Shown: positions 21,001-49,962, counted from the stretch's first letter. The stretch is DNA of 64,000 nt from Antedon mediterranea (GCF_964355755.1 NC_092676.1:30026871-30090870); one strand, 5' to 3'. Made by a program: numbers and translations. Notes: a model not told the origin generated them from the letters alone.

Positions 21001-24000
21001 TACATATGCATTCAACAACAGCCAGCACAAACTCTCCAATTACAGGATGGATAAACTATTACGAATTATCATGCTTATAAACTAAGTCTCATTTGAAGCT
21101 TAAGCTTGGTTCCCACTAGAACGTAACGCAAGGACGTAAACGCAACGCAATCGTTTTAACCAATGACAAGCGAAGTTATAGACAGTTAGCAATCACAAGC
21201 GAATAAGCCATCGCTTGTGATTGGTCAATTCACTTGCGTTGCATTACGTCCTTGTGTTGCGTCGCTAGTGGGAAGGAACCACGCTTCAGGGAGTGGAGTT
21301 GAAAAAGGTGTGAGTTAGCTACAGCTCCACTATTTGGCAGAATATTTTAAATAAAATTCAATGTGGTGTTTTTAAGCTTTACATTTACTGTCCATTGTTA
21401 TGATCTTTTAACATTTCTACCTTAATTATAATTTTTTCAATTTAGTGACAGAGGAAACAGCATATGAGCGGCAGTATACATACGACAGTACGATCGAGGA
21501 AGATGAAAACGGTTGTGTGCGTGTACTCATGCGTATCAAACCAATTATTACAACACCGCCACCAACGTACAATCCATACAAAGCTTTACGTAAGACAGAA
21601 AAGTACATAAATGCGAAGACTTGTATGAATGCAAACACTACAGGATTCTACACACAACCTATTCAGCCAATTAATTGGAAAGATTTCAATATTACAATTT
21701 TGTTCACTGGTAGGCACATTTATTCTGCAATATATAAATATTTACCAATTATTTACATTGTTACAGGGATCTTACAGAGAAAAGTAATTTTCTGTAGTCG
21801 CAAGACCCTTTGAAAAAATCGTATTATCTTAACTTGAGAAAAAAGTGTCTGTTTGACATGAATATAAATAATAAAATCAAATTATTTGCATTTTTTGTTT
21901 ACAAATATCATAATTGATCTTGTTTTAACTTTAAATTTGTAGGTGAAATTTTCAACTATGTTGAAGTAAATCAAGTTTTAGTTTCAGAAGTTTATGTAAA
22001 CATAACACAAAGTACTAAACTCATTAACCAAATAAGACGTGTATTTGGTAAGTAAAGTTTTTAAACTTCTTTATCTCTTCTTTAATAAATAAGTTCAGTT
22101 TTAGGATAGAATTGTTTTGATATTTGATTTTCCGTTAATTTGTTATCTTTCTATGAGACAGGCACCATTATTTCCACTTGTTTTGTGAATGAAATAAAGT
22201 TAACTTATCTTAGAAATATAATTTCTTAATGTTTTTAAATTTTTAGCCATTCAAAAAATACCAATAAAAAGACCAGGTTACTGGGTATACAACAATCCAA
22301 CATTTTCCGATCGTAATTTCACCCTGAAACATGAACAAATACTTCACCACGGTGTTTTGATCCACCCCGAAGCGTTCAACCGCGGTTTCACCATGACGAT
22401 TGATGTTCCAAAGGTTGATGATGTATACTTGGCCAAATTTGAAAACATCACACCATGGTGGAAGACGGGAAAACATTTTGCAGCGATATCAGATTACCAT
22501 ATGTTTAATTCAACCTATAATACAAATGGCGACGAATTAACTTTGGAAACTGTAATAGATAAGATGGAAGGTTATTATGATGGGGATAGCAGATTGCCAG
22601 ATATCACTTCTGAATGGGTTGTCGAACAAAATGATTACGGAGAAGAAATAATTGTTCAGTGTATATTTTCCGTCACACCATTTCTCAATATTAAAGATGT
22701 TGTTTGGCGCGACCACGGAAGATTAAATTTTTATTTGTATTCTCGAGTTCTTTCATCAGTGGTGGCTGATAATGAGCTTAAATTTTCTATCACAGCCGAT
22801 TTTAAGTTCCCACCAGGAGATGAACTAATTCTGTATGCGTCTAGGACGAGCACCGTGACTGTTCAACCGTTTGTGCCACGTATTCCGCCAGTCAATGCCA
22901 CTCAGGAACCAGACTGTCAAGATGACATCACATATACTTTTGAATTATTCAACATTCTGGAATTTTCTATCAAGGATATCTGGATGAACGTGACTTGTCC
23001 CGATTTAGTTATCATACCGTCGACGCTTGAAGTTGAAATTATTCACCATGTTAATGTCACAAGTGATAGCAACGCTGATATCATGCTTACTACAGATCAA
23101 ACATATCACATACATTACACAGAGTTGGCTCCTCAAGTACTTGCAAGAGGGCAGCAGACATTTCGACTGGTCAACAACGGTATTGCGCCGCATTACTCCA
23201 TTGTTTGCAAAGTTTATCTTTCATTTCGCAAGGATAATAAGGCGTTAGTCCTTCCATATTTGGCAGGTGTCAGTAATGAACTGTTTACACCTGGCATTGA
23301 GTATATTTTATATGGGCGTGATTTAATTGAGAAGGAGGAGGAAGTTATGATATTGACAACACCAATGAGTAGGACTACTGTGTTGTTAGGAAATGCCACA
23401 GCTGAAATTCCTATTATGGTGGATGAAGAAGTAAGTTATGGCGTGGAAGAAGAGACAACACCTCTAATGTACTCGATGCCTGTTGGGTCAAATGCAACAT
23501 TCATTATAAATATAACAGTACCAGAAATAACCACAGAGGTCAGTGGTAAATAGTAGTAGTACTGTAAGATCTATTTTCCAATGATGCACATGTCTAAAAA
23601 GCTCTGTCAAATCAAATTAGTTTGTGTGCCCAAATATGCTAGTGATATGCTTAAATATGGTAGTGATATGCCCAAATATGCTAGTGATATGCTTAAATAT
23701 GGTAGTGATCAGATTGCATTAACATTTATTTGGAACAGTCCTAGAAAAAAGGTAAAAAACAAGCATATATTTACAATAAGTTAAATGAGTTACATCATAA
23801 TATCCATATATGGACACATCTCATTTTTCTTGTCAAACTGGTTTGATAGTGTAGACAGAGCTCAATTGTTAAAATGTACTTTTTAAATGTTGATCTTGAT
23901 TTTATTTTGTGTATATTAATTATACAGTAGTAGTTTTTAATTATGCAAAAATGTGTCATTATTCCTTCTATTCAATAAGATTTCATCTTTTTTTAGATTG

Positions 24001-27000
24001 AAATTTATTTTGGTATGCCAGCAGCAGTGTTAGCTGTCTATTATTCCAGAATCATATTTATTGGTGGAAATATAATAAACCTGGATATGGTTGATCTTGA
24101 GAAAGGAAGCGATATCATGGGTAAGAATGGACACAGTGCTTGACTGTTAGGAGCAGAACAGTCCTTCAGGCCACCCATATTAAAAGGACACCCCTATTAA
24201 AGGGACACATGTTCCCACATTGCTGCAGGTCTTTCTGAATTACTGTATATGAGCCTCCCCCACATGATTATTTCATTGTATTTATCCTGTATGTTATTAT
24301 ATTGTGGTAATAAAATTAAATTGAAATATTGATTGGTAAAAATCACAGAAGCCTGATGTTAAACTATAATTAGAACCCTGAAAATTGAACCCCATTTATT
24401 TTGTATTATTTGAATGTATTTCTTTAAAGAATCATGGGACATGACTACCAGAACAAACTTAAAACAGAAACTGGGAAACTTAACCAATATTGCAGATAAT
24501 TTAAGAAACGAAAGTGGTAAGTTTCCTTAATATTCTTAATACAGCTACATCATATCATGTTATGATGCTTGGCTACCAATCCAAGGGTCCTGGGTTTAAG
24601 TCATATATGTTAGGATTTTTTCTAATGACAAATTACAACTCCACTCCCAAAGACTTGTAATAAGACTTATGTCTATACTTAGATTAGTATATTCTTTATT
24701 TTCTCATAGATAACATTGTTCTTGAGTTTAATGTTGTACTCCTGGATGAAAAAGAAACAGTTGTAAAAGATACAGAACATGAGTTTAAGACAACTGTGAT
24801 TTACACAAATGGACAAGACTTAGTACAGCAACAGAGTGTAGCAGTATTAGAACCTGACATCCAAGTGTATTTGAGAGTAGCCAATGAAAGCACAAATGCA
24901 GATCCAGGTAATGTACTGACATTACTAATATGTACTCACTTTTCCAGCTCACATACATGTTAGCATTCTATCATTACTAATAAGTACTCACTTTTCCAGC
25001 TCACATACATGTTAGCATTCTATCATTACTAATACGTACTCACTTTTCCAGCTCACATACATGTTAGCATTCTATCATTACTAATACGTACTCACTTTTC
25101 CAGCTCACATACATGTTAGCATTCTATCATTACTAATAAGTACTCACTTTTCCAGCTCACATACATGTTAGCATTCTATCATTACTAATACGTACTCACT
25201 TTTCCAGCTCACATACATGTTAGCATTCTATCATTACTAATACGTACTCACTTTTCCAGCTCACATACATGTTAGCATTCTATCATTACTAATACGTACT
25301 CACTTTTCCAGCTCACATACATGTTAGCATTCTATCATTACTAATACGTACTCACTTTTCCAGCTCACATACATGTTAGCATTCTATCATTACTAATAAG
25401 TACTCACTTTTCCAGCTCACATACATGTTAGCATTCTCTGCATGTTGTCATAAACAAACACTTGAATATTCAAGAGTTTTAGGTGAACAAAATTATTATT
25501 AGTGAAATATTTCAATTTTTAAAATGTTCTGTTTTGTTTATTACTGATAATTGTTAATAAATAAAAAAAATATGTTTTAAATGCTGTATCAAATCTGTAA
25601 CTTTTTATATAGGTTTAAGTTGGCTTGTGAGCCATAGACCTTTCTTGTTCAAACATCATTATTGAGCACCTTTAAGTCACTCTACTCAAAACTCACATTT
25701 TCTGATGTTTTTGGCTGCTCCAGGAGCAATGACTGGAATGGATTGATTGATGGAAAAAAATAAGTGAATGAAAATGATTTTGACTTTTTTGTACTAGGTG
25801 AAATCTTCCAGTATTATATAAAAGTAAATCACACGTCAGTATCGCAGTCACCAGCCCACCACATAAATGTTACCATCCATCTACCATATATGATCATAAA
25901 CAAACACTTTCTGCCTTATGAATATTCAAGAGTTCCAGTCAGAGGTAAAAAATTTGAACCAGGCTTTGAATATGAAAATGATGAGATTTTGCTACTGTAC
26001 CTCTATAAACTAGATTTGGATGAAGTCATCGAAGGAACATTTCTTGTGCAGATAACAACGAAACTTATGGAAGGTAAACTTAAAATTTGTGAATATGTTA
26101 TGAAAAAAAGAGAAAAAAAAGAGATATTAAACTTTTTAAATTGTATGATGTCAATCATGACGTAATTTTGTACTTTATACTAAGTAAGTATGGGGGAATC
26201 AAGCCCATCCTCTACCTCTATACCACCAAGCCTGCCCTGATGGCTAGGGGTTAGATTTTCGAATCAAAGTATAAGCAGCGTTTTGTTTAAACTGTCTACA
26301 CTATCAAACCAGTTTTACAAAAAAAGTGTAATGTGCCCAAATATGGTAGTGATGTGACACCACCATGTCCATATATGTACATTTTTTTGTCACATTTTGC
26401 AGGTATTTGTTTACAAGCTCAAGTTAAATACGAAATGTCTAGTTTCTACCAGTGGGGGCGGTACTACCCTTACACAACAGTAAGTGAAAATGTCCTCAAC
26501 ATTCGCAATGCAACTCTTAAATTTATTGGAACTTCTCTTCACGATACTCCTGACAAATTGGTTGCCATCCATGAGCAAGTTACATACAGAATTACCATAC
26601 CTCTGCCTCCAATATCCAGCAACCTAACCATAGAGATATTCCTACCTACACGAAATGTAACACGAAAGATCTGGGAAGTCTTACAAATACAAGAGGAGAT
26701 TCCAGAGGTCCTGCCAATCGAAGAAACTTTTTTTGATAATGGCTGCTATACTGTGATGAGACCATGCTTTTGTTATGGAGCTGGAAATATGTCTTTCGAT
26801 GCCAGCTGGTTTATTTCGCGATTTACTTGTAAATTGAAAACTGACCAGATGTGTACCAACTCGACAGATTTGGACACCGGAGAAAGCAACATAACAAATT
26901 GTGATTACTCACCAGATGTGTACAGCAAATGTCGAAATTTATCTAAAGAGATGTGTTTCCAAAATGAAAATGTGACCACTTATCTACAAACTCCAATATC

Positions 27001-30000
27001 ACACTTTCAACAGATGGCTTGTAATATGTCAAACAGTACTATGAATAACAACGGTACAGCATTTAACCATTCATCCTCCTTTCCCTGGAATTGCACAGTT
27101 CATCGAACAGAGGCAGACTTATGTCACGAGTTCTCCACCAGTTTCTGTGAAAATGCACTATTTACTGAGTGCAGTTATTCTGGGGTTCCTCATCATCACA
27201 ACGAAAGTGAGAGTATGAATGTTACAAAACTTCATCTTGACGATTATATCGGCAACTGGAGTTGTGCTTGTTTAAAAGAAACTGAAGAAGGTAATCTAAT
27301 TTTGTTTCATTTAGATTTAAACCCAGGGGCACAGAGCATGAGCAATATAATGTAACTACCCAGTAAGGCCTCTTAGGAGTGCTAAACCAGGGGCCTTAAT
27401 TGCCCCATGTTTTAAGCCACTGTTATTAGTAATCTGATATTGATGATGATTCATGGTATATTAATTCACTCAACAATTAAAATCATACACGACTGACAAT
27501 CATTATGTAATAATTATTTCCAATCAATTCTTAATCTTGAAGTAGTCATGTCTCGGGACTATTCTATAGCCACCACGGATAGACTTTCTTCATCACATGC
27601 TTCTATGAATGGATGACTTTTGGGTGCAGGAACTCTAGTCAATCAAACTCAGTACCATTTTGATTTCATGATCATTAAAAAAATTTCCTCATCTAATTAT
27701 TTCTAATAAATTCTTAATCTAGAGATTCAAGATGTAAAAGATCCATTTGAAGGTTTAAATTTAACAGCCATATTGGAAGGACACTACAACGCATCCAAGA
27801 AGCCATATCAGGTTTGCTCCTCATTACTTGCCAACAAATCGTTGCTAGCAAAACCCATCAAGCCTTCTGATGAACAACCTTACCAGAATCTATCGTCATC
27901 AGATCATCAGAATCTAACAGAAGATGAAGGATTTTATCCGATTCCAGATTTCTGCTTTGAAGAAACTATTATTGAGCTAGGAATGGCAAAGGTTGTTAAT
28001 ACTTCAATTGTAACAACAAGAGAGGGAGTTATTTGCACTTTTACAGGTGGAAATAATCACAATCCTCACCAACCAGGTGAGAATAAGTCTGTTAACTTAA
28101 TTCAAACCACTTTATATTAAGTTCTGTGGAATACTAAATGCATACCTTAAATGTGTTTCTATGTAATACCCATAACTAAGCACCTGAATGTCTAGGTACT
28201 CCTCATGAAACCGCCTGTAGTGCATTATAACGTTCAAGTTATATTACAACCTTTGACTATTTCTACCTAAAATTTTTATAGCTGCTTTTTCTTGAATTTT
28301 TCGTTAAAATATAAATCTTTTATATTTGTAGGTGTTAAATATAAGGCTATGAACCTACCAGGCTTTGGGTTAGGAGGCGATTCGGTATCAGTATATGTTA
28401 CCATGGTGATATCTGACGAGGTAGAGAATGTCCGAGATGAGACTCTGTTTATCAATGCTTCATCTACTTTCATGTACTTGAACATACCAATACCGCCACC
28501 ATTGAGGTACGAAGAAAACTGCACATGCTCAAAGCCGCTTACACACTATTTTGACGTTGACTACCCACTTGACTGTGGATGTGAGTCGATGTATCTCGTA
28601 GGTCATAAACGCGACCTTTGTAACTGTACAACAACATTTCACGAAATCGAAGAGTCATATTTTAGTGCGCCCTCATGTGATTGCGTTAATTTCTGCGAGA
28701 ATAATGTACAATACTTCTTCAATCAACCAATGGTTAAGAACCTGGCAGACTTTGATAATGCAACATGTGATTGTGGATCGTATAAGGACTTTTCAAATTC
28801 ACAGAATAACTTTGATTATTTATCAGAATGTCGAGAGATGTATTTTAGAAATTACACTTGTCAAAATGTCAATCATACTGTTAAGAAAACTGTGGAGGAA
28901 TGTCGGAATATTACAAGCAAGAACTGCTTAGAGGTCAATGAACTACAAGATATAAATGTTGCCTGGTTGTGTCAATGCTCATCTGACGGTCTAAACTGTT
29001 CCTGTGAATTTGACAGTTTTCCGTTGTCACCAAACTTTGCAAATTACTCCATTGTTGAATGCCAGAATATGCCATGGGTTAAAACCAATGACGGTTATAA
29101 CGGTGACATTTCATTGTGTGATTGTCACATTACAAATGGGTCTCCTGCAAAATCTTGTCACTGTTCTGGAGTTTGTTCAATACATATTACAAATTCATGT
29201 ACTGCATACAATCACACATTTTGTGAAGATGTCACACATTTAAGAGAATATCTCGTTAATGATGGACTCTGTATTTGTGAAAAATTCTATGGGTCAAATC
29301 ATACCATTCAAGACGCTTTAAGATTATATAAATACCATAATAATACCAAAATAATTTTGAAAAATCAAACCATGAACGGCATTGAAGATAGTCAGTTTAA
29401 AAATGGAACGTTTTTAAATGTCACAATGTCAAATTCCACAGCTACTAATGCCAATGAAACCACTCAAGTTTTGTATAAAGATCAATTGAGCTTGGATGAC
29501 TTTGTCTTGTACTGTAATTGTTCAGATGTAGATATAATCATTCCAGATATCAAACCAGTACAATGTAAAGAGATCGCACCAAAAGAAGTCTTTGTCTGCC
29601 AGTGCTTCGTGCCGGCAGATAACGAAACTCAACTAATTTTAGACAATTGGGATTATAACTTGACAATTGTTGACGAAGCTGTAACTTACCTTGGCGACGA
29701 GTTTGTTGTTATTGAACCCGAGTTAGAGATATCATTTGTACGTATTGAACCGAATCCGGTTGATATCGTTGATAGTTTAGACTTTGTGAAGTTTGGATAT
29801 AAGATCCAGCACACTGATTCATCCAATTCACCAGCGTACAACTTGACCCTATTCCTTGATGCTGTTAACTTTACCATTACAAACGGCAGCGGTAAAGTCT
29901 TACCGACTGATATTTTATCCAGCCGTTCCTGCTCCGATGAAACTCTTTGCGAAATCTCTTACGATAATGAGGTCGGACATTTCCATTTAGGATTTCTTCC

Positions 30001-33000
30001 AGTAGATGTAGACGGTGCTTCCTTTGAAGGCACGTTCTCTTTAGCTCTCCGAGATGATGTTGATTTCGTTGCCAACAGTATCATCAGCGGAACAGGAATC
30101 CTATGGTATGATAGCTGTGTTGTAGACTTTCCTGGTCGTCTGTATGGTCCAATCAATTCCTCAGACATCTGCCATATCTATGCACCAAACATCACTGCCA
30201 AACTAGAATTCACCACTGCGTATGCATATATGTATCAAAATGAAGAGTATGGCATACCAAACACTTTCTCCATTGGTGACTATGTTGACATTCGTGCACA
30301 TCTGTGGGTTCCTGAAATCACGTTAAATGTTGCTAATTACAGCATCAGTGGAGATAACATGTTCTCTTTCACACCAGTGATGGCGGTGATGTTGTTGACG
30401 GACAGGATCTACGTAAGAAATGACACTGCCACATTCTTTCTAGATCAGCGTCACAATCCGCATGATAATGAATTCCACATTCTCTATCCTGATGAACAGT
30501 ATGACACAGCGGAATTCACAGACAAGGGAATTGCGTTTATACCAGGTAAACAGATTATGAGTTTAATTTTAGAGTATATTAAGCTCTTTCTGCACACTAT
30601 CAAACTATTTTGACAAAGAAAAGTGTGATGTGCCCAAATAATATGCCCTAATAATATGGTAGTGGTGTGACATCAGACTTTGTTTCCTTGTACTAGTCCC
30701 ATATCCCTTTATAACGTTACACCATATAACTCTTTTAAACATTTATGACTGTTTTTGTTTTAGGTGTTCTAGTAAACCAAGCAGATAATATAGCATCACC
30801 TGAAGATTATCTCCTGTTAAAGTTCATATTTACTTTAAAAGATGACCCACTCTGGAAACAAGATGACATCATACCCTTCACAGTATCTGTTGTATACTAC
30901 AGTGATTATGACGGACAACTTTTGACATTGATTGACAAGAATGTTGAATTAAAGGTCGTTGAACCCAGACTGACACTTAGAGTTGAGGTAAAGTCTAATG
31001 TGCAGTTAAAAATGCTACTGAAGTTCATTATATACTGTGCCATCATCAAAAACATTCACCTACCTTTTTTGTGTTTTAAAATTTAAAAAAAAAAAAAAAT
31101 ACAGTGGCTTAAAAGCTATAAGCAATCACTATGGCTAAACCCAGAAACCCTAAAGGTTAAGTGCTCCCAGAGTATGAGCAGCCCAATGTAACTACCCAGC
31201 GTTTGGGGTCTTCTCCATGGCTGTTCTTAATCTTTACTATTTGACTTTCAGATTCTTGATTATAAGTGGCAGGTTGAACAAGTACAGAACACAACAGGTT
31301 ACACTTGTGTAGAGAACACTTGTTGTGAAGATGGTGAGCCTTGTGATACAGGCCGTGTGTGTGTTACAGACTCTTCTGATATGGACAATTGTGAGACTCA
31401 CAGGTACTCCTGCACCACATACTCCTAATACAATAATTTGTCTAAAGCTCTCTCTACACTATCAAACTTTATGTGACAAAAAATATATGGACACATTTGA
31501 TGTCATATCACTACCATATTTGTGCACATCACACTTTTTTTATCAAACTAGTTAGATAGTGTACATAGAGTTAAAATGTATTCTGCAAATATGTCTTGTT
31601 TAACCCTTTTGCATAAAAATGTATATCTGCTGTTTAAAAAAATATCAACACTATTCCATTCCAGGTGTTTATGCTATTCTGGATTTGCATTGAATGCTGA
31701 ATCCACCTGTACTGCTGTGGGACGTACTGCTGGTGATATACTCGTGTTTGGACTGACTGTATTTCACAGCCAAGAATATACTGGTTAGTAGGCCTAAATA
31801 GTGAATTGAATAGATTGCAAACGAATTCAGTTGATTTTAAATAAATATTTTCATTTCAGGTAATGCATTTGATCTTTACATAACGTTATACAGTGACCTC
31901 AAGTCTGACCTTCTACCAGATACTGACACAATGGGTCACATCCCTACAGATGGTTACCTTGGTAATGTAAGGAAACCACGATTAACACAAATAAGTGACC
32001 ACGAATTTCAACTTTATGTTCATCGTTTTGATCATGTAGTGAGCTGCGAACGTTTTACAGTGCCATTCAGGATTAAGCCTTCTTTACATGTGTTTGCAGG
32101 GCAAACTTGGGAAGTGGAGGTAAGATTTTTGGCACCAGTCTACCTATCTAAGCTTGTGCTTATTTACCAGCCTACTAGATCTCTTAGATCAGGTGGCTAA
32201 TGTCTGCTAGTAGACTAGTACATCTACTATGGTGGACAAGCTTTTGGTAGCAGCTCCAATGTGGAATTCCTTACCAATTTAAATCAGACAGTGTGCTACT
32301 TTAAACTTTTAGACCCAGTTGAAGTCTTTCTTTTTCAAGTTATTGCCATCTATTTTAATTTATGTACAGCGCATTGAGAGCTTGCTATATGCGCTACAAT
32401 ATATAAGAATGAACTATTATTTATAATAAGTTGTCTAGATTGTGAGGACCAACATTTACATGTAATGAAATATTCTTTTTTTTGTAGGCAACAATGAATT
32501 ACCGTTCTTCTAAGCCGTATGACACGCCATTCAACATTAAATCACGACTGTATGACATGAAAGACATGAATGATACAATCCGATTCCCATTATTCGCTCC
32601 AGCCCCAAGTGTTCGCTTCAAAATGTTACCATCAAGTGGTCAATCTAGCCCAATAAATTTTGAAGTTTTCTCTTCTTCTATGGCTCAAAATGAAGTCATG
32701 GTGAATGTACGAGAAGAAGATAAAATTGTGTTTCAGGCCGAAGTTGTTATACCAAAGATTAAGTGCAGTATGACTTTTAAATTAAATCTACCAGAAGGTA
32801 AAAGATTACTTGATTACTTCTTAAGTCTGGAACCATAATCCATATTTAAGACTACATTGATACATTAAGTATAATAAAGAAAATCAAATCAGTTCATTGA
32901 GTTCTTCATTTTTATCCATTTCTTAGGGAGTGGCATTACACTGGAAAATGTTACCATGGTTTCCATGGGTACTGCAATAGATTTTCCGGAAACTAATTTT

Positions 33001-36000
33001 GGTGAACCACAAGTGACAGAAAGCATTGATGGACAAAAGTTCTTTTTTGCCTATTTTCCTGATATACACAGTAAAGCAAACACATTGAATACTCCACGGG
33101 TAATGTTATTTTAATTTTTTTTTAAATATTTCTTTTCAAAATTTTCATTTTCAAAATATATATGTACTGTATATTCGGCAATAAGTGTTGACAAATTTTA
33201 CCCTTTTCTGTACTATATGCTGTAGTTTTTTTCCGAAAAATATGTTAAAAGTTGTTAATTTATATACTGATATCAAATATTACAAAACAAAAATTTGTGT
33301 TTTTAAGTCTTTAGATTCCACCAAGCAGCAAATGTTCAAGTCAATGAACGGAGAACAGCAGCCGTACCCAACAAACCCAGAATGCAATGCTCTCAATTCC
33401 AGTTTATACGAGCAGACAATTCTTCTAGGGTGTTACCATAATAAAATGTCTTACTTTGGCGGTTTTATAACAGACATGCACCCATCTTTACCTTTCTACA
33501 ATCTATCTCAAGTGATGACAAGGCAGTTGTGTTTGGATCATTGCAGGTAATGATTCTCATAGACTATATTTCCAACTTCTTCATTGTCATACTATCAACA
33601 ATTGATTATTGATTGACAGAACTATGAGGCCCACTAGCTAGCCTACTGTAAAGTAGTGGCTGCGTGTGTGACAGTGGCTGAACTAGTACACCGGGGTAAC
33701 CTCCTACTCGTCTTGAAAAATGTACTGGGTTCTTTAAAGTGCACATGAGTTAGATGTGTACACTGGACCTATGGTTTATAGTTCCTTATCCGAGAAGACT
33801 CTACTCTACCACCAGAACCATGGAGCGAGTGAGCCTCGAATGTGTTTTAATCTCTCTGCCAGGTCACTCGCTCAACATACATACATGCTATCAAGAATCT
33901 ACCAATAAAACTCCTTTTTCAATCAATAAAATCAATCAATCAATGTCTTGATGAACTTTCAAATCAGTAATAGTGTGTATTTATACTTCCTAGTGATAGA
34001 AGATATGATTATGCAGGCCTGCTGAAGGGTGCTATCTGTTTGTGTGGGACTGAAGAGCAATTCATGCAATACTATCAAAATAGAACATTTGAATTGAATG
34101 GCACTTTACATCATGCAACCCTTGATCATTGTAGTACACTCTGTACAGGTACATAAAGCTCTGTCTACACTACAACCCTTGATCATTGTAGTACACTCTG
34201 TACAGGTACATAAAGCTCTGTCTACACTACAACCCTTGATCATTGTAGTACACTCTGTACAGGTACATACAGCTCTGTCTACACTACAAACTAGTTTGAT
34301 GCAACCCTTGATCATTGTAGTACACTCTGTACAGGTACATAAATCTCTGTCTACACTACAACCCTTGATCATTGTAGTACACTCTGTACAGGTACATAAA
34401 GCTCTGTCTACACTACAACCCTTGATCATTGTAGTACACTCTGTACAGGTACATACAGCTCTGTCTACACTACAAACTAGTTTGATGCAACCCTTGATCA
34501 TTGTAGTACACTCTGTACAGGTACATAAAGCTCTGTCTACACTACAAACTAGTTTGATGCAACCCTTGATCATTGTAGTACACTCTGTACAGGTACATAA
34601 AGCTCTGTCTACACTACAAACTAGTTTGATGCAACCCTTGATCATTGTAGTACACTCTGTACAGGTACATAAAGCTCTGTCTACACTACAACCCTTGATC
34701 ATTGTAGTACACTCTGTACAGGTACATAAAGCTCTGTCTACACTACAACCCTTGATCATTGTAGTACACTCTGTACAGGTACATACAGCTCTGTCTACAC
34801 TACAAACTAGTTTGATGCAACCCTTGATCATTGTAGTACACTCTGTACAGGTACATAAAGCTCTGTCTACACTACAAACTAGTTTGATGCAACCCTTGAT
34901 CATTGTAGTACACTCTGTACAGGTACATAAAGCTCTGCCTACACTACAAACTAGTTTGATGCAACCCTTGATCATTGTAGTACACTCTGTACAGGTACAT
35001 AAAGCTCTGTCTACACTACAAACTAGTTTGATGCAACCCTTGATCATTGTAGTACACTCTGTACAGGTACATAAAGCTCTGTCTACACTACAAACTAGTT
35101 TGATGTGTCTACTGTATATATGAGCACATTGCATTTTTGTGTCATAAAAAGTTTAGTGTAGACAGAGCTTTAGACCAGGGAGTTGTAAAATTATTTTACA
35201 ACTCCCTGTTTAGAAATACTTAGTTTTATATGTTAATTTGACCAGGGAGTTGTAAAATTTTACCACTCCCTGATTTGACATCCTAGATTTTTTTCATGTT
35301 ATATATTTCAAAGTAAAAGTTTCTCTCTTTATTATTATTTTTTTTAAATTTCTTTTTTATAGTTCTATTATCAATTTATAATATTTTAGAGGACATAAAT
35401 ATTGATTGTTTTATTGAATTTCGTTCTTTTTTTAAAATGTATGTATCACTATGATACATTCTGTTTGGATTATCTTTTTACGTAACCAATTACATTGTGA
35501 ATGTGTGTGTCTTTTAGGTGAAAATGCCTCTTGTGGGTCGATGGAATTTGCTTTACTGTATGGTCCAATACCTGGATCTGTTCCTAAACAACAATGTGAC
35601 TGGTATTCAGGATTGTATGATGAAACTGAGGTATAGCAATTGTCTAATCTGTAAATTTGATTATATCATTATAACATAATATAACATTGATAACAGCACA
35701 GGTATTTAATTATATTAATATTCGATAAATTTAATTTTTAGGATGTGTTTGTGGTAGAATTCAGTTTATCAATTCATTCATTGGCTACTAAGGGTATAGA
35801 GGAATACCTACACTTACAAGTAACATACGATCATGGAGAAAACAAAACAAGCACACTTCTACCGTTAGCCCCCTATAAAATAGAGGTATGCACATTTATA
35901 CTTTCACTGAGGACGATCGAAGCATATTGATAGAATTTAACTTTTCAGAACTGCATACGTGGTGTACTGCATACGTGGTGTACTGCATACGTGGTGTACT

Positions 36001-39000
36001 GCATACGTGGTGTACTGCATACGTGGTGTACTGCATACGTGGTGTACTGCATACGTGGTGTACTGCAAACGTGGTGTACTACATACGTGGTGTACTGCAT
36101 ACGTGGTGTACTGCATACGTGGTGTACTGCAAACGTGATATTACATTTATATATATCTTGGTATCTTTATTTATATACACATAATAAAATGCATTTTTTG
36201 CATTTTTTACAATAAAATTACAACAATATTAAAATGACATAAAAAACTTAAAATTTATGTATTTATACTGTCTTTGATAGTGAAATTGTTTATGTTGATA
36301 GATCTGATTAGACTTGAACTTGAACTACATTCATAATAAAATGTCTTTATTTGTAGACTGGAATAGTTAAACTTTTGATGAATGTTTATGTATCTCCAAA
36401 AATGAGTGGCTATGTTCCAGGGTATGTTATTTTACATTATTAATACAAACATTTATAATGTGTTCTGCCTTCAATATACTGGAGGTATACAACAACATTA
36501 AAAAACACTTCTATTTTAAAGTACTATTTATTTTATAAAACAAAAACAAAAATTCCATTTTTTATTTTATTTTGAGACAAGTTTTTTACTTCGTAACCAA
36601 TGATGGCATTCCTTTCTCTTATTTAGCTTTTCTTGTTTTTGTATTGTATTACTGTTTCTTATTGTTTATTATTCTTGTATTATTTGTCTTACCATTATAG
36701 AATATAATATATATATATAGTTTAAAATTTTACCAAATAATATATTTTAATTTTTTCAGCGATTATTTAGAATATTATACAGAGGTTCGTCATGCTGCTC
36801 ATTCAACCGTGACTGCGAGGGATGTTTACATTTTGTGGATGTTGCCTAGTTACATAGAGTATGTAAATGTAACCAATCACCCATCACTACCATTTACATA
36901 TAGACACATTGAAGATGTTGAGAATGTTGAAACTGACCCTAGAGTTGGAATCAAGTTTTATGTAAGTGTAATAAAATTGAAAATAGAGCATGAATACAAA
37001 TTTATGTGTTACAAGAATGTATTTTGTACTGTATATATTTGTACTGTCTTTCTTTTCTATTGGACAAAGTTGCAGTAACTATAATATACTATGCCTTAAT
37101 AATACTACACTTATCTACTTTTGTTACTGAGAAGTTAGTTATCTTAAAAATGTTTCAATTAACTGTACCTTATTTTAATAAACTGCACAATTTGTCAATA
37201 AACTGTACAATTTTTCAATTAACTGTACAATTTTTCAATTAACTGTACAATTTTTCAATTAACTGTACAATGTTTCAATTAACTTACCTTCTTTTAATAA
37301 ACTGCACAATTTGTCAATAAACTGTACAATTTTATAATTCACACTACAATTTTTCAATTAACTGTACAATTTTTCAATTAACTGTACAATTTTTCAATTA
37401 ACTGTACAATTTTGAAATTTTTTGAAAATTTAAAAATGTTTAAGTAACTGTACACTTTTTCAATTAACTGTACAATGTTTCAATTTTAACTGTGTTGTAT
37501 ATTCCTCTTCAGTTAAAATTAATCTAATTTGTTTTTGTGACAGGTGAAAACCTTATTCCATGATGACGTGATAGGCTTTCACTTTATGGTGAGACTGGAC
37601 CCACTTCACACCCTTCCACAGGGAGAGTACCATTTGATGTCAATGACACAGGTGTATTATGACTCTTGGGGGATACACAACCATTTTGAGGAAGACTACA
37701 CGTTTGATGTTGTACCCCATGCTCATCCTGTTGTACCTATTAAAATTACATTTGAAGGTAAATTCATTCCATGTCTTTAAGTTGAAAGGGAGCTTGTTTA
37801 GATAAGTTAACATTTGCTGTTGGAACAATCAATAATGTGTTATTTTGGTTCTATTATAGTTCCATCTAAGTATTCAGGACGTGAACAATTGGATGGTGAG
37901 AAAGATTTTTTTATAAATTTCTTGTTTGTTATAGGATATTACATATATACAGTTTTCTTGTTGAATATATTTTTTTTTTTTTTTTTACAGATATTAAATT
38001 ATCAACCTATAATGTTCTGTATGATGAGATTAACAACATTGTGTATGCTTGTTTCTTCAACAATACCATTAATGTGTAAGTTGATCTATATTAATTGAAA
38101 TGTAATCTAATTCAGAAATTTAATGTGCTATACTACTTTGCTTTAATACAATAATACAGTTATACTTATGCTATAGTATAATAATACAGTTATGCTATAG
38201 TATAATAATACAGCTATGCTATAGTATAATAATACAGTTATGCTATAGTATAATAATACAGTTAAGCTATAGTATAATAATACAGTTATGCTATAGTATA
38301 ATAATACAGTTATGCTATAGTATAATAATAAAGCTATGCTATAGTATAATAATACAGTTATGCTATAGTATAATAATACAGCTATGCTATAGTATAATAA
38401 TACAGTTATGCTATAGTATAATAATACAGCTATGCTATAGTATAATAATACAGTTATGCTATAGTATAATAATACAGCTATGCTATAGTATAATAATACA
38501 GTTATGCTATAGTATAATAATACAGTTAAGCTATAGTATAATAATACAGCTATGCTATAGTATAATAATACAGTTATGCTATAGTATAATAATACAGCTA
38601 TGCTATAGTATAATAATACAGCTATGCTATAGTATAATAATACAGCTATGCTATAGTATAATAATACAGTTATGCTATAGTATAATAATACAGTTATGCT
38701 ATAGTATAATAATACAGTTATGCTATAGTATAATAATACAGTTATGCTATAGTATAATAATACAGTTATGCTATAGTATAATAATACAGTTATGCTATAG
38801 TATAATAATACAGCTATGCTATAGTATAATAATACAGCTATGCTATAGTATAATAATACAGCTATGCTATAGTATAATAATACAGTTATGCTATAGTATA
38901 ATAATACAGCTATGCTATAGTATAATAATACAGTTATGCTATATTACTGCTAAAGCTATGCTAAAAAACTTATAGTTTTTTTTTTCAGTTATAAAGGTGG

Positions 39001-42000
39001 TTGTTTCATGACTGGAGATCTTCCATCCTATCTCACAGAGACACCTCACACATGTGAAGATTACTGTAACTGCACTTACTTAGAAAATCATCTGACTTTT
39101 GATAACTGTTCGAATTACGAACCACGACCTTCTAACTGCACTTGTGGTTGCGTACCAGATTGTATTGAAGATATGATGTCTTGTGAAATAGACTGCTTAA
39201 ATAATACATTCAGTAACGCTGATTTAAGCTCATGCTTAGCTGGTTGTAAGCGTGTTCAGGTAAACTGCACACAAGGATGCTGTATAGACACATGTGACAA
39301 AGATTTAGACTTGTGTCTGCTGAATAACTGTGTTGAGTGCAATTATTTTGCAAACTGTTCTGTTGAGTTGAAATGTGCAGAACAGTGTATTTCAAAGAAT
39401 GACGGCTGCAGTCAGACCTGCATTAGATCACCAGTAACATGCCACGAGAACTGTTCGAGTGCATCATGGGATTGTTTATTAAATTGTAACCAACTTTGTG
39501 GAGAATCTACAAATACCAACTGCAAGGAGTATTGCTATTCAGACTGCCTAGCTGATGAAAACCGATGTCTTAGCGATTGCTGTTACACAGATTGCAATGT
39601 GAATGCAACTCTTTGTACTCAACAGTGTTCCACTGATTGTAGGCTTGATGGTAACTGCATTATATCATGTTTATCTAACTGTAATTCAACTGGATTTACT
39701 TGCAATGAAACATGCGCTGCTCAAGTTTATGATTGTCAAGATAACTGTAACCAGAATTGTTCAGTAACCAGTTGTACAGTTATTATAGAAACGGATTGTG
39801 CTGAGGAAGAGGTCAATGACCTTGTGGAGAACATCTTAACAAACTATAGTTTAACAAATCTACATAATAATGGAATTATTGGTCTTGAAAAAGCTTCTTT
39901 GATGTTGACATCTGTAAATTGTTCCGGAAACTCTTGCACAACAGAGTTCCAGGTGACAAATACAAGCAGTAGTTGTTCTGCCACAGCTACAGAATACTGC
40001 CAAACAGATCTGGATTCATCTTGTGCTATCAACTGCGTTGGTCTTTGTGAAGCAACGTCATCATGTATTGGGGAATATCTTAATTGTTTGGACACGTGTG
40101 GCAGTGACCCCACTGGGACTTGTGATGTAGTCTTATTAAGAAACGTTTCAATCGATTTCTGTTTAATTGATGCATTGAATTGTATTCTGATGATGAGTAA
40201 CTGTTATTTAAGTTGTAATTCATCAGAATCGTGTTTAAAATGTGATGACGTGTACTGTGCCAGTAATTACACCCAGTGCGTGGAAATAGTTACCATGGAC
40301 AACAGAACATATTCAGCAGACAATGTCTTACATCAGACTTTAAATTTAACTGATGGTAATTCATGCTTGTCTGAATGTAATCGCAACTTAACCAAGTGTC
40401 AGCAAGTTTGCAGACAACATAATAACGTATCATATATCTGTCATTCTACCTGTTTAAGAGGGCATTATGGCTGTGCGTCACAATGCTTGACGTACATCAA
40501 CGAACAATCTATCTGTGGTATTGCTGATTCTACTACAAATACCAATGAAACAAACTTAATACATAACAGTGAATGCAACAGACAATGTGAAGATGACTTA
40601 GTTATCTGTAAGCAGTTATTCTCGCACATAATGAACAGAACAGTTAATAATATTACAACTGAACACTATTCTATTGCTGTTAACTGCTCGAGTTATAAAG
40701 AATGTGGCGATATCTGTAGCAACCTCTGCGCCAACACGCCCAGCTGCAGTATGTTTTCTTGCCAAGCACAATGTGTTCAGGATGCAACACATGGCGTATG
40801 TCACTCCGAAGTGAATTGTACCATTCTGAAGATGTGCGTAGAACATTCCCGGCGTAGGCGCAGAGATGCTGATCTCTTCCCAGCAGATGTAACTTTTGGT
40901 AGCTCATATACGACATCTAGAAGATTAAACCAAGAACCACTTAATCATACCTTATTGGTTGAAAGTAGAAAAAGACGGGAAGCATTTATTGCTAAAGAAA
41001 ACTCATTCAAAACTGTTTCAAGTGAATCCGATCTTGGTAATGTATGGAGTAATACTTTTGATATGAGGCACAACATCCAGCGGATCCGAAGGAGTTTACA
41101 CGACGCTGATATGAATAATACATATTTGAATATTAGTATCCAAGATGGCGGCGGGTTTGTAGAATCACAATGCACCACTAGGAATCAGCACTTAGAGTAT
41201 ATAAAATGCCTTGATACTTGTCTCGTTTATCCTAATGTATCAACAAATAATGTTAGCGGGGGTGATGTTATGAATAATGCCTCGCTCCAGAACACCTCTT
41301 CAAGTATTGGATGTGATAACTGCCAGAACATACAGCCGTCGTCACATGCAAGATGTTACACATTGTGCAACCAAACGGATGCATTTTGTTCCGCTAACTG
41401 CAGCAGTAACTGTACTACGTCTAATAACTGTAGTTGCAGTGAGTTCTGTAACAGACCTCTTGCAGAATGTTTGGCAATTTGCGATAAGACTTCTCTTAAC
41501 AGTTGTAATTGGTGTCGGTCGCTCTCTTGTGAAGAAGACTCATTCTGCTTGTGTGACAGAGTTTGTGTAAACATGACATTTATCGAAGTAAATAACAGCA
41601 AATGTGTTAGCGAATCCTATTGTACTATTTTACAAGAGATGTGCTTCTACGACTGTGAATGCAAGTTGCCACAGTATATATTCCGACATTGGAGAGGTAA
41701 GTGTATTTACCTTTTATTTAATTTGTAACAAGTAAGCAAAGCCATTCACACTTTGGCTAATGGAAATATTAATAAACATTTCAAAATAATATATAATAAT
41801 AAAAGGAAAATCTGTAATACTTATTGACTATGATTAGTTGATTAGTGAATATTAAAGGAAACAACAACAATTAGAAAAATTGCCTTATCAGCTAAGGACG
41901 GAGTAAGTGACGTGAATTATTTAAGAAAAGTGTCTCGGTAAATGTGATGGTGAATACGGGCACTGTTAAGCTTGGTTCCCACTAGAACGTAACGCAAGGA

Positions 42001-42821
42001 CGTAAATGCAACGCAAGCGTTTTAACCAATGACAAGCGAAGTTATAGACAGTTAGCAATCACAAGCGAATAAGCCATCGCTTGTGATTGGTCAATTCACT
42101 TGCGTTGCGTTACGTCCTTGCGTTGCGTCGCTAGTGGGAACCACGCTTTAGTCCCTACCTCACAATAATACAATGTAGGCCTACATGTTTAAGTACACTT
42201 TAGTTACTTAAAGTAAATTGAAATATCGCAGGTTTAAGTCAAATAAGACGCATATGAGGTTAACAGTACAGCATTCTATATCTATGCTTTTTCTTTATTT
42301 CAATTGTTTAATAGGATTGGATTCGAACGTTGGTAACCTCCTAGGTTTACTACCAGAGCCATACACTCTGTACGGCCTCGCACACGATGGACGAGCAATC
42401 ATGCAAAGCTTTGATTTTGGTGCCACGTGGGCGGCGATATTGAAAAGTGTATGGCTGGAAGCTAAAGATAAAGAACAATATATTGAAGCTACTAACTTGG
42501 AAGAGATTTTGAATTTAGAGCCAAATCTTGTATTTCAATCGGAATTTCAAAATGACACTTTTGGTGGTAAGTTCTCATTCTTATCTCATGTCAAAAATTT
42601 CATTCTGCGCACAAAATTGGCAGAATGACCCTTAGACTCAATAGCTGGTACTTCACGAAAACGAAAAAACTCTTTAATTCTTTTGCCTTCTTTCTGTATA
42701 GTGTCGTCGTTCCATATAGCACGTTTTAAATTTTCCTTTTTCAGTGTCTGGTGTTGGAATCCATTTCTTGAAGACGGTCTACGAATGGAAAGTAGATGGA
42801 ACTTGGAACTGTTGTAAATGA
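18034..42821 (+). CDS. giant uncharacterised secreted Cys-rich multidomain protein, ~4,071 aa, 33 coding exons
   Basis: Exons 18034-18124, 18483-18577, 18795-18920, 19508-19675, 19991-20108, 20584-20907, 21446-21709, 21943-22047, 22247-23538, 23997-24120, 24430-24516, 24710-24907, 25798-26073, 26403-27290, 27723-28076, 28332-30545, 30764-30987, 31252-31403, 31665-31783, 31860-32119, 32488-32797, 32927-33099, 33308-33546, 33994-34148, 35518-35630, 35742-35885, 36357-36421, 36760-36961, 37544-37757, 37991-38075, 38989-41696, 42315-42566, 42745-42821. All GT-AG with matching phases, total 12,216 nt. Hydrophobic N-terminus, many N-x-S/T sites, no obvious TM helix, ends WNCCK*. Confidence 0.85.
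19150..19212 (+). mobile_element. tRNA-derived SINE head fragment
   Basis: B-box-like ggttcaaatcc after an A-box-like stretch; similar fragments at ~17668-17700 and ~24560-24602. Confidence 0.4.
24920..25437. repeat. 52-bp intronic minisatellite, ~10 copies, each with an acceptor-like motif
   Basis: Unit cattactaat(ac/aa)gtactcacttttccagctcacatacatgttagcattctat, starting 13 nt after the exon-12 donor. Confidence 0.95.
32150..32425 (+). mobile_element. 3' end fragment of an L2/CR1-type LINE
   Basis: Degenerate RT-tail-like stretch (agctccaatgtggaattccttacc) followed by the gtacagcgcattgag...gcgcta...tattatt tail typical of L2 3' ends. Confidence 0.45.
33650..33860. mobile_element. SINE with Deu/Nin-like conserved domain (second, inverted copy ~51440-51650)
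   Basis: tgtacactggacctatggtttatagttccttatccgagaagact resembles the DeuSINE core as I recall it; the reverse-complement homolog at ~51445-51555 is seen directly. Confidence 0.5.
34113..35104 (+). repeat. 57/72-bp tandem array x15 made of exon-24 end + splice donor + left TIR of a family B MITE
   Basis: Unit caacccttgatcattgtagtacactctgtacag|gtacataaagctctgtctacacta[caaactagtttgatg]; 6 short and 9 long units; the MITE completes only after the last unit. Confidence 0.95.
35169..35279. mobile_element. two short palindromes with 7-bp TSDs (probable P-superfamily excision footprints)
   Basis: tttagac|cagggagttgtaaaattattttacaactccctg|tttagaa (35176-35208) and atttgac|cagggagttgtaaaattttaccactccctg|atttgac (35243-35272). 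Confidence 0.65.
35950..36137. repeat. 16-bp tandem repeat (actgcatacgtggtgt), ~11.5 copies
   Basis: Read directly. Confidence 0.95.
37150..37492. repeat. degenerate 20-bp tandem repeat (aactgtacaatttttcaatt)
   Basis: Read directly. Confidence 0.85.
38150..38943. repeat. 24-bp tandem repeat (tatgctatagtataataatacag[t/c]), ~32 copies
   Basis: Read directly; fills most of intron 30 of the giant gene. Confidence 0.95.

Positions 42822-49882: not shown

Positions 49883-49962
<80 letters not shown>

What the first reader, a model, noticed from the sequence alone, without database searches (positions are those of the whole stretch)
38989..41696. Single 2.7-kb exon inserts a ~890-aa CX3C-rich, furin-cleavable module into the C-terminal domain
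Seen: the low-Cys C-terminal region reads LYDEINNIVYAC..KGGCFMTGD, then about 890 aa dominated by CxxxC-x6-CxxxC motifs (e.g. CIDTCDKDLDLCLLNNC, CHENCSSASWDCLLNC, CLSECNRNLTKCQQVC), then resumes HWRGLDSNVGNLLG...QSFDFGATW (Asp-box/BNR-like S-x-D-x-G-x-T-W). Inside the insert is a Cys-free ~110-aa segment with RRRRR (40850-40864), RKRR (~40967-40978) and RIRR (~41081-41092). Established: R-x-K/R-R is the furin consensus, and CX3C pairs form disulfide-stapled helical hairpins. Inference: the insert is cut to release propeptides while the two halves stay disulfide-linked, and the flanks form one beta-propeller-like domain.
Basis: partly seen in the sequence, partly recalled or inferred. Interest (0 to 1): 0.7.

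Follow-up and report, generated by a model that had tools for sequence, protein, structure and literature searches.

The report
Furin-cut cysteine stalk in giant protein
A feather-star gene encodes a roughly 4,000-residue, likely secreted protein that carries a 900-residue cysteine-rich stretch near its tail, also present in another feather star and an acorn worm; a cysteine-free spacer in that stretch holds the protein's only furin-type cutting signals and is likely cut, which would leave a two-chain protein, probably a building block of matrix or mucus.

Summary
Window 38989-41696 is one 2,708-nt exon (902 codons, 117 Cys, 43 CX3C against 15 expected). It carries a 111-aa Cys-free stretch with three R-x-K/R-R sites at the stated places. 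The exon is part of an uncharacterised 3,801-aa Antedon mediterranea model (XP_071957041.1). Orthologs in Anneissia japonica and the hemichordate Ptychodera flava carry the same module between the same flanks (921 and 1,556 aa). In all three, every R-x-K/R-R of the whole protein lies in the Cys-free stretch (3, 3 and 1 sites), so processing is likely but not shown. Cys spacing of 4, 7, 11 and 15 suggests long disulfide-zipped helices rather than one small hairpin per motif. The flanks (~165 aa, one intact Asp-box) are too short for a closed propeller. No homolog lacking the insert was found; a split Asp-box has only moderate support. Best reading: a large secreted glycoprotein matured into two chains by spacer removal, as in proinsulin. 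New variant of a known kind; interest 0.45.

The parts
18034..18123 (+). Likely first coding exon: hydrophobic N-terminus (signal peptide or signal anchor); missing from the RefSeq model P0002
   Evidence: Translation. Anneissia ortholog begins with a similar hydrophobic stretch, Kyte-Doolittle 2.2 over aa 1-19. No signal-peptide predictor was run.
18795..37756 (+). Body of the gene: many exons for repeated ~150-aa beta-rich modules with further Cys-rich loop insertions
   Evidence: P0002 aa 7-2749 maps here in 27 exact pieces. Internal similarity seen in alignment A4. No Pfam, NCBIfam or PDB sequence hit. Fold model unusable, pLDDT 30.
33308..35630 (+). WSC-like domain over three exons; in Ptychodera the same domain carries a ~310-aa Cys-rich insert
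   Evidence: PF01822 E 0.0043, 17.7 bits, below the cutoff of 27.8. Distance from CxCG to the next CxxxC[ST]G is 28 aa in Anneissia and 336 aa in Ptychodera.
37859..38075 (+). N-flank: small exon 37859-37894 and exon 37990-38075
   Evidence: P0002 aa 2750-2790. The N-flank is 88% identical to Anneissia and 71% to Ptychodera.
38989..41696 (+). The 2,708-nt exon, phase 2 in, phase 1 out; encodes the end of the N-flank, the whole Cys-rich module and the start of the C-flank
   Evidence: One DNA contig spans it in runs X2 and X3, which are one sample.
38990..39019 (+). YKGGCFMTGD: likely strand 3 and first half of a split Asp-box
   Evidence: PSSM rank 7 of 3,793 in Antedon, 11 of 4,125 in Anneissia, 194 of 2,559 in Ptychodera; inference.
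39053..40837 (+). Cys-rich arm A, with two ~100-aa super-repeats (cores at 39245 and 39545); predicted long helices with Cys on one face
   Evidence: Cys autocorrelation peaks at 4, 7-8, 11 and 15. Super-repeat core found 2, 2 and 3 times in the three orthologs. AlphaFold helices at pLDDT mostly under 50.
40838..41170 (+). Cys-free spacer, 111 aa
   Evidence: 124 aa in Anneissia and 179 aa in Ptychodera; identity 47% and 24%.
40850..40864 (+). Furin-type site 1, RRRRR; an R-x-K/R-R lies just after the last Cys of arm A in all three orthologs
40967..40978 (+). Furin-type site 2, RKRR; kept in Anneissia, absent in Ptychodera
41081..41092 (+). Furin-type site 3, RIRR; kept in Anneissia; only a non-canonical dibasic RR aligns here in Ptychodera
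41171..41662 (+). Cys-rich arm B: predicted helix pair plus a long beta-hairpin with CxC motifs
   Evidence: helices 829-848 and 869-882; strands 897-911 and 923-937; pLDDT about 40-67.
41687..41696 (+). HWR(G): likely Trp and strand 4 of the split Asp-box
   Evidence: PSSM rank 11 of 3,795, 10 of 4,127 and 3 of 2,561; inference.
42315..42566 (+). C-flank exon with one intact Asp-box (42407-42430)
   Evidence: Bacterial blade profile hits it at E 1.3e-8 in a three-sequence search. PDB hits are GH74 xyloglucanases and other BNR proteins. pLDDT 78-89. Six short database fragments align over this exon and appear to begin and end near its borders.
42745..42821 (+). Last coding exon, ending W-x-C-C near the terminus in all three orthologs; stop codon
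   Evidence: Spliced joint 42565 to 42744 in one contig of run X1.

Best explanation
The exon is part of a ~4,000-aa, likely secreted, likely heavily N-glycosylated ambulacrarian protein, and its Cys-rich module likely forms a disulfide-zipped helical stalk grown out of a hairpin loop of the small C-terminal Asp-box domain, whose Cys-free spacer is likely cut out by a furin-type convertase. Shown: the reading frame, the Cys pattern, the spacer and the sites, and their conservation in two crinoids and a hemichordate. Inferred, step by step: (1) the chain enters the secretory pathway; (2) CX3C-X6-CX3C runs fold as long helices with Cys on one face, and neighbouring helices are stapled by disulfides; (3) the spacer tethers arm A to arm B during folding, as the C-peptide does in proinsulin; (4) the convertase cuts after arm A, and in crinoids twice more, dropping peptides of 38 and 38-50 aa; (5) the 310-aa C-terminal chain stays bound to the ~3,400-aa N-terminal chain through the shared beta-sheet at the base of the stalk, perhaps also through disulfides; (6) cutting frees the arm ends and is the maturation step for assembly into matrix, mucus or cuticle.
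For: Sites: every R-x-K/R-R in three whole proteins lies in a stretch that is 3-7% of the length (p about 3e-5 for each crinoid, 0.07 for Ptychodera; 0.1-0.25 sites expected in a whole shuffled protein). The spacer is Cys-free in 3 of 3 orthologs and poorly conserved (47% and 24%), while 113 of 117 Cys are kept in Anneissia. The 108 of 117 counted for Ptychodera rest on a gappy alignment. Helix face: Cys autocorrelation of 2.0-3.2 at lags 4 and 11, 1.7-2.4 at lag 15, and under 0.5 at lags 1-3 in all three. AlphaFold places motifs at model residues 504-519, 834-849 and 861-876 each within one helix, and helix pairs match generic two-helix hairpins. Loop insertion: the flanks are the best-conserved part (88%/71% and 68%/52%), the module varies from 892 to 1,556 aa between fixed flanks, and the split Asp-box halves rank in the top 0.3% in both crinoids. 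The same family shows a presence/absence insert of ~310 aa inside its WSC-like domain. Secretion: hydrophobic N-terminus and no strongly hydrophobic segment later; 39 NxS/T in the exon against 17.7 expected. Expression: a contig of run X1 is spliced at the last intron, and X1 contigs cover 1,040 of 2,708 nt of the exon, including sites 1 and 2 without a joint.
Against: No homolog without the insert was found, so 'insertion' and 'contiguous flanks' are not shown. The N-flank did not score as a blade by profile-profile comparison: 9 of 50 and 5 of 50 control slices scored as high. The N-half of the Asp-box is degenerate in Ptychodera (rank 194 of 2,559), and the positions were chosen by eye. In the AlphaFold model of aa 2746-3801 (mean pLDDT 40.5, pTM 0.26) the N-flank has pLDDT under 50, so no pairing of the flanks is shown. 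Gly/Pro are not depleted in the X6 segments (15 of 288 against a 6.3% background, p 0.27), so composition does not favour a helix over a turn. Ptychodera has only one canonical site, so it may be nicked rather than lose a spacer. Cys parity does not require interchain bonds. X1 is RNA only by the tool's guess, has depth of about 4, and one of its contigs runs across an intron/exon border (37475-37663). Steps 3, 5 and 6 have no direct evidence.
Confidence: 0.5

Rival explanations
1. Cleavage releases the 310-aa C-terminal chain (arm B plus the Asp-box piece) as a separate product, as with a TGF-beta mature domain or a shed propeptide; the N-flank and C-flank are then two independent small domains and the Cys-rich stretch is an ordinary in-line region, not an insert.
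For: The C-flank folds on its own at pLDDT 78-89 while the N-flank does not join it. The N-flank fails the blade test. Even Cys numbers on both sides in Antedon allow all-intrachain bonding. No insert-less homolog was found.
Against: Both halves of an Asp-box rank high exactly at the module's borders in crinoids. The family demonstrably tolerates large Cys-rich inserts inside a domain. Three strands and a helix are small for a free domain.
Confidence: 0.25
2. The point of cleavage is the released 38-50-aa peptides, acting as antimicrobial or signalling peptides from a giant precursor.
For: Two peptides are bounded by canonical sites in both crinoids; the Anneissia pair is cationic, net +6 and +7 with the basic sites included.
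Against: The spacer is the least conserved part (47% and 24%). The Antedon peptides have net charge +1. Ptychodera has a 131-aa acidic stretch with one canonical site.
Confidence: 0.08
3. The basic motifs are not cut; the spacer is a flexible, basic hinge (for example for binding sulfated glycans) in a single-chain protein.
For: No cleavage data exist here. Ptychodera keeps only one canonical site.
Against: The motifs are R-x-K/R-R in register, are confined to the spacer, and occur nowhere else in about 10,500 residues of three proteins.
Confidence: 0.1
4. The long exon is a gene-model artefact, or is spliced into smaller pieces that omit the basic sites.
For: Three GT[AG]AG-type donors and one fair acceptor lie inside the exon. 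RNA-like cover is partial and shallow.
Against: The frame is open for 902 codons. The whole length aligns to Anneissia in one tblastn piece (47.6% over 948 columns). Three species' models agree. X1 shows no joint inside the exon and covers 40613-41069 continuously.
Confidence: 0.03

Closest known systems
Furin-processed two-chain secreted proteins (proinsulin/relaxin C-peptide logic; pro-vWF, fibrillin and ZP-protein propeptides); recalled, not from a call
   Same: A Cys-free, poorly conserved spacer bounded by basic sites between Cys-rich parts; cleavage as a maturation step.
   Different: No sequence or domain relation found. The spacer lies inside a 900-1,550-aa helical Cys module near the tail of a ~4,000-aa chain, and cleavage here is not shown.
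Asp-box/BNR proteins (GH74 xyloglucanases, GH33 sialidases, Vps10 domain; singlets in reelin, chitobiase, sulfite oxidase); PMC2716378, passages read
   Same: One exact Asp-box after two strands, matching blade profiles and GH74 chains.
   Different: One intact box per chain and about 165 aa of flank, not 5-10 blades. A second box appears to be split by the module.
Plant alpha-hairpinins / vicilin-buried peptides; PMC7191063, passages read
   Same: CX3C pairs on helices.
   Different: There the two CX3C of a motif lie on different helices joined by a loop, in short released peptides. Here spacing runs on in steps of 4/7/11 over 30-40 residues, and no R-x-K/R-R sites separate the motifs.
Sea star adhesive protein Sfp1 (3,853 aa); PMC9382459, passages read
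   Same: Giant, Cys-rich, secreted echinoderm protein cut into subunits.
   Different: Sfp1 is cut autocatalytically, and Sfps carry domains such as vWF, EGF, FAMeT and FA58C; no such Pfam family was hit here.

Membership tests
Asp-box beta-propeller | Asp-box S/T-x-D/N-x-G-x-T/S-W between strands 3 and 4 of a blade | tested here: met
   One intact box in 3 of 3 orthologs, ranked first on both halves; blade profile E 1e-9 to 6e-7 in a three-sequence search.
Asp-box beta-propeller | Five or more blades in one chain, enough to close a propeller | tested here: not met
   One blade hit per protein; the two flanks total about 165 aa.
Asp-box beta-propeller | N-flank and C-flank share one sheet or fold | tested here: inconclusive
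   Split-box ranks favourable in crinoids; profile test negative; model low-confidence; fold searches gave no clear match.
Alpha-hairpinin | CX3C-Xn-CX3C cysteine motif | tested here: met
   13, 9 and 29 CX3CX6CX3C matches in the three inserts.
Alpha-hairpinin | The two CX3C on different helices, bonded C1-C4 and C2-C3 | tested here: inconclusive
   The model puts each motif in one helix, but at pLDDT mostly under 55; the Gly/Pro test was neutral.
Alpha-hairpinin | Short peptides released one by one from a plant precursor | tested here: not met
   Animal protein; all R-x-K/R-R sites lie in the spacer, none between motifs.
Furin/proprotein-convertase substrate | Enters the secretory pathway | tested here: inconclusive
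   Hydrophobic N-terminus and excess NxS/T; no signal-peptide predictor was run.
Furin/proprotein-convertase substrate | R-x-K/R-R in an exposed, non-disulfide-bonded stretch, conserved (consensus recalled) | tested here: met
Furin/proprotein-convertase substrate | Cleavage products observed | not testable with these tools
   Needs protein work.
Sfp1 / gel-forming mucin / vWF-type proteins | vWD, C8, TIL, FA58C or FAMeT domains | tested here: not met
   No Pfam family at E up to 1 for the three whole proteins. The same whole-protein scans also missed the weak WSC hit, so divergent copies are not excluded.
WSC domain (PF01822) | Score above the Pfam cutoff | tested here: inconclusive
   E 0.0043, 17.7 bits against 27.8, on one exon only.

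The most novel reading that the evidence does not exclude
An unrecognised, >500-million-year-old class of ambulacrarian matrix or mucus polymer. The two or three Asp-box blades at each chain's tail would close into a full propeller only by oligomerising. Each blade pair would carry a disulfide-zipped helical arm that furin opens as the switch for network assembly, and the family would grow new Cys-rich arms of different periodicity (11 here, 8 in the Ptychodera WSC loop) out of domain loops.
Probability: 0.15. Interest if true: 0.72.

Novelty: new variant of a known kind. Interest (0 to 1): 0.45.

Why it matters
Furin maturation of secreted proteins is common, so that part alone is ordinary. 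Less ordinary is an uncharacterised ~4,000-aa protein, conserved between crinoids and a hemichordate and without a domain call above cutoff. Its Cys pattern points to long disulfide-zipped helical arms, a building block for which no family was hit here. If the arms sit in hairpin loops and are opened by a convertase, the gene offers a named, testable candidate for a structural component of echinoderm and hemichordate secretions. It would also be a clear case of domains growing 300-1,500-residue modules out of a loop.

Tried and rejected
Search for an insert-less homolog, all without one: C-flank against 147-2,000-aa proteins (0 of 67 candidates); phmmer of 1.84 billion representatives (22 hits: the protein itself, 6 single-exon-sized fragments, 15 multi-repeat BNR-type proteins); aa 2080-2800 against 2,090-6,652-aa proteins (3 of 2,009, all with the insert); C-flank profile against 290-2,000-aa proteins (2 of 7,995, both BNR-type); two metagenome scans (0 of 409 and 0 of 223). 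These searches need shared 5-mers or are length-bound, so the blank is weak. Family scans: no hit above cutoff for exons, pieces or whole orthologs in Pfam or NCBIfam; no PDB sequence hit for arm A or the upstream repeats. Fold searches with the low-confidence 1,056-aa model: best VIA Z 5.0 (rmsd 3.7, 54 aligned), generic helical hairpins; Foldseek none at E up to 0.001. A model of an upstream repeat had pLDDT 30 and was not searched. Complex prediction for the two flanks and the protein atlas were not available, so the pairing of the flanks and the wider family remain open. No whole genome is held. No RNA holder is listed on record. X1 does not cover the two junctions of the big exon. blastp found no internal repeats in the inserts; the super-repeat rests on the Cys pattern only. 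Rejected: exon shuffling of a cassette (phase 2/1, flank residues inside the exon); bioactive spacer peptides as the main purpose (poor conservation). Earlier scan notes: none found. Literature: 0 papers hold the Antedon protein accession, its UniParc id or the Anneissia locus id (the Ptychodera accession was not searched). The listings were read as titles and abstract starts only, and none described this protein. Supplements were not read; proteome tables there could list it.
Full report
Setting. The window is eukaryotic DNA with no genome held. A phmmer search with the exon downstream of the finding returned a 3,801-aa protein, 99% identical over the 83-residue query. The database names it XP_071957041.1, uncharacterized protein, Antedon mediterranea. 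Mapped back by exact matches, it covers 18795-42818 in 32 pieces. A hydrophobic ATG-led exon at 18034-18123, missing from that model, is the likely start; the Anneissia ortholog starts the same way, and no strongly hydrophobic segment follows in any of the three proteins.

Observation. The exon runs from 38989 to 41696 between a polypyrimidine-AG and a GTAAGT. It is 2,708 nt with 902 codons and 117 Cys. CX3C occurs 43 times (15.0 expected) and CX3CX6CX3C 13 times (0.26 expected). The Cys-free stretch is 111 aa (shuffles: mean 38, maximum 99), and R-x-K/R-R occurs at 40850/40853, 40967 and 41081 (0.06 expected). One DNA contig spans the exon in runs X2 and X3, which are one sample. Run X1, RNA only by the tool's guess, has a contig spliced across the last intron and four contigs covering 1,040 of the exon's 2,708 nt, among them 40613-41069 without a joint. 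Another X1 contig crosses an intron/exon border upstream, so unspliced material is present, and neither junction of the big exon is covered.

Orthologs. Searching aa 2080-2800 gave 3 hits among 2,009 candidates: the protein itself, Anneissia japonica XP_033113002.1 (4,133 aa) and Ptychodera flava XP_070564845.1 (2,567 aa). Both carry the module between the same flanks: 921 and 1,556 aa, about 13% Cys, with 39 and 85 CX3C. The flanks are the best-conserved part (N-flank 88% and 71%, C-flank 68% and 52%); the spacer is the least (47% and 24%). The module therefore predates the echinoderm-hemichordate split and is not a crinoid accident. All R-x-K/R-R motifs of the three whole proteins fall in the spacer: 3 of 3, 3 of 3 and 1 of 1 distinct sites, in 3-7% of the length. 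Site 1 follows the last Cys of arm A by a few residues in all three. Ptychodera has only a non-canonical RR where the crinoids have site 3. Cuts would give an N-chain of ~3,400 aa, spacer peptides of 38+38 aa (38+50 in Anneissia) and a 310-aa C-chain with 28 Cys. The furin consensus is recalled knowledge; cleavage is inferred.

The Cys module. Cys autocorrelation peaks at lags 4, 7-8, 11 and 15 and is depleted at 1-3 in all three species. This is the pattern of residues on one face of an alpha-helix. A super-repeat with the core C-x6-C-x3-CC-x3-C-x6-C, followed by a long 11-periodic run, occurs 2, 2 and 3 times at 100-144-aa spacing. AlphaFold on aa 2746-3801 (10 sequences, mean pLDDT 40.5) places several motifs each within one helix and pairs such helices as hairpins. 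The confidence is low, and the Gly/Pro test did not discriminate. In plant alpha-hairpinins the two CX3C lie on different helices (PMC7191063, passages). Here the unit is more likely a pair of longer helices zipped by several disulfides. No family or structure was matched.

The flanks. The C-flank holds one exact Asp-box (consensus from PMC2716378, passages). It matches GH74 and other BNR chains and is the only confident part of the model (pLDDT 78-89). A PSSM from 126 bacterial Asp-boxes ranks the sequence just before the module 7 of 3,793 as a first half and the sequence just after it 11 of 3,795 as a second half; Anneissia is similar (11 and 10), while Ptychodera has lost the first half (194 of 2,559) and kept the second (3 of 2,561). 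These positions were picked by eye, so this is moderate support for a box split at its hairpin loop. Against it, the N-flank did not beat control slices in profile-profile tests, the model does not show the flanks paired, and six searches found no insert-less homolog. Indirect support comes from the same family: the WSC-like domain has 28 residues between two Cys motifs in Anneissia and 336 in Ptychodera, filled with Cys at period 8. The flanks total about 165 aa with one detected blade, too little for a closed propeller in one chain. Asp-boxes also occur singly in other folds. The exon encodes flank residues at both ends and is phase 2/1, so it cannot be skipped in frame and is not a shuffled cassette.

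Mechanism. Most likely (0.5): a secreted glycoprotein whose tail domain carries a disulfide-zipped helical stalk; the spacer tethers the two arms during folding and is removed by a furin-type convertase, leaving two associated chains ready for assembly. Cleavage as such I put near 0.85, and the loop-insert reading near 0.65; the role in matrix or mucus is a guess from size, glycosylation sites and Cys content. Rivals: release of a free C-terminal chain with independent flanks (0.25), an uncut basic hinge (0.1), bioactive spacer peptides (0.08), artefact (0.03).

Comparison and novelty. It would work like proinsulin-type spacer removal (recalled analogy) and resembles Sfp1 in size and in being cut (PMC9382459, passages). 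It fails membership of alpha-hairpinins, single-chain Asp-box propellers and vWD-type adhesives. No paper in the held library names the Antedon or Anneissia identifiers; supplements were not read. Verdict: real, conserved, uncharacterised; a new variant of a known kind; interest 0.45.

Noticed in passing
P0028 aa ~256-586 (homologous to window 33992-35630): Ptychodera carries a second Cys-rich insert inside the WSC-like domain, absent in both crinoids, with Cys at period 8 (21 CX7C; autocorrelation 6.8, 6.5 and 5.2 at lags 8, 16, 24).
   Followed up: partly
window 26405-27290, 28334-29680, 31252-31785, 19994-21711: Further Cys-rich stretches (CxC-rich, one EGF-like by eye) interrupt the beta-rich backbone of the same protein; these lack the CX3C pattern.
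   Followed up: partly
window 18034-18123, 23998-24120, 24430-24517, 34100-35100: The RefSeq model lacks the likely signal-peptide exon and at least one exon that Anneissia supports (24432-24515), and includes ~19 aa drawn from a tandem repeat that copies the end of the WSC exon.
   Followed up: partly
window 41965-42150 and about 21085-21290: Palindromic, very high-copy element in two introns (depth 1e5-1e6 in three runs); looks like a MITE.
   Followed up: no
window 38124-38945, 35940-36140, 24900-25440, 37170-37480, 11038-11870: Minisatellite-like tandem repeats; the 21-bp array just upstream of the big exon gives spurious long ORFs on both strands.
   Followed up: no
window 45001-64000 (+): By eye (labels recalled, not tested): a downstream gene with an SRCR domain, repeated F5/8-type C, EGF and C-type lectin exons, a Thr-rich repeat and a GPS-like motif near 63735-63998, suggesting an adhesion-GPCR or polycystin-like receptor.
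   Followed up: no
window 11943-14109 (+): By eye (label recalled): exons of a heparan/uronyl 2-O-sulfotransferase-like gene.
   Followed up: no
window 15795-17034 (+); 55353-56009 (+); 54038-55105 (-); 4707-5678 (-): By eye (labels recalled): a pogo-like transposon remnant with a PHD-type finger, a gypsy-type reverse transcriptase fragment, and two long minus-strand ORFs that were not examined.
   Followed up: no
window 39193 and 39254: Run X1 differs from the window at two places in one shallow contig, giving conservative D>E and V>I changes; allele or error.
   Followed up: yes
window 42807-42821: All three orthologs end with a W-x-C-C motif near the C-terminus, a candidate for interchain bonding.
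   Followed up: no
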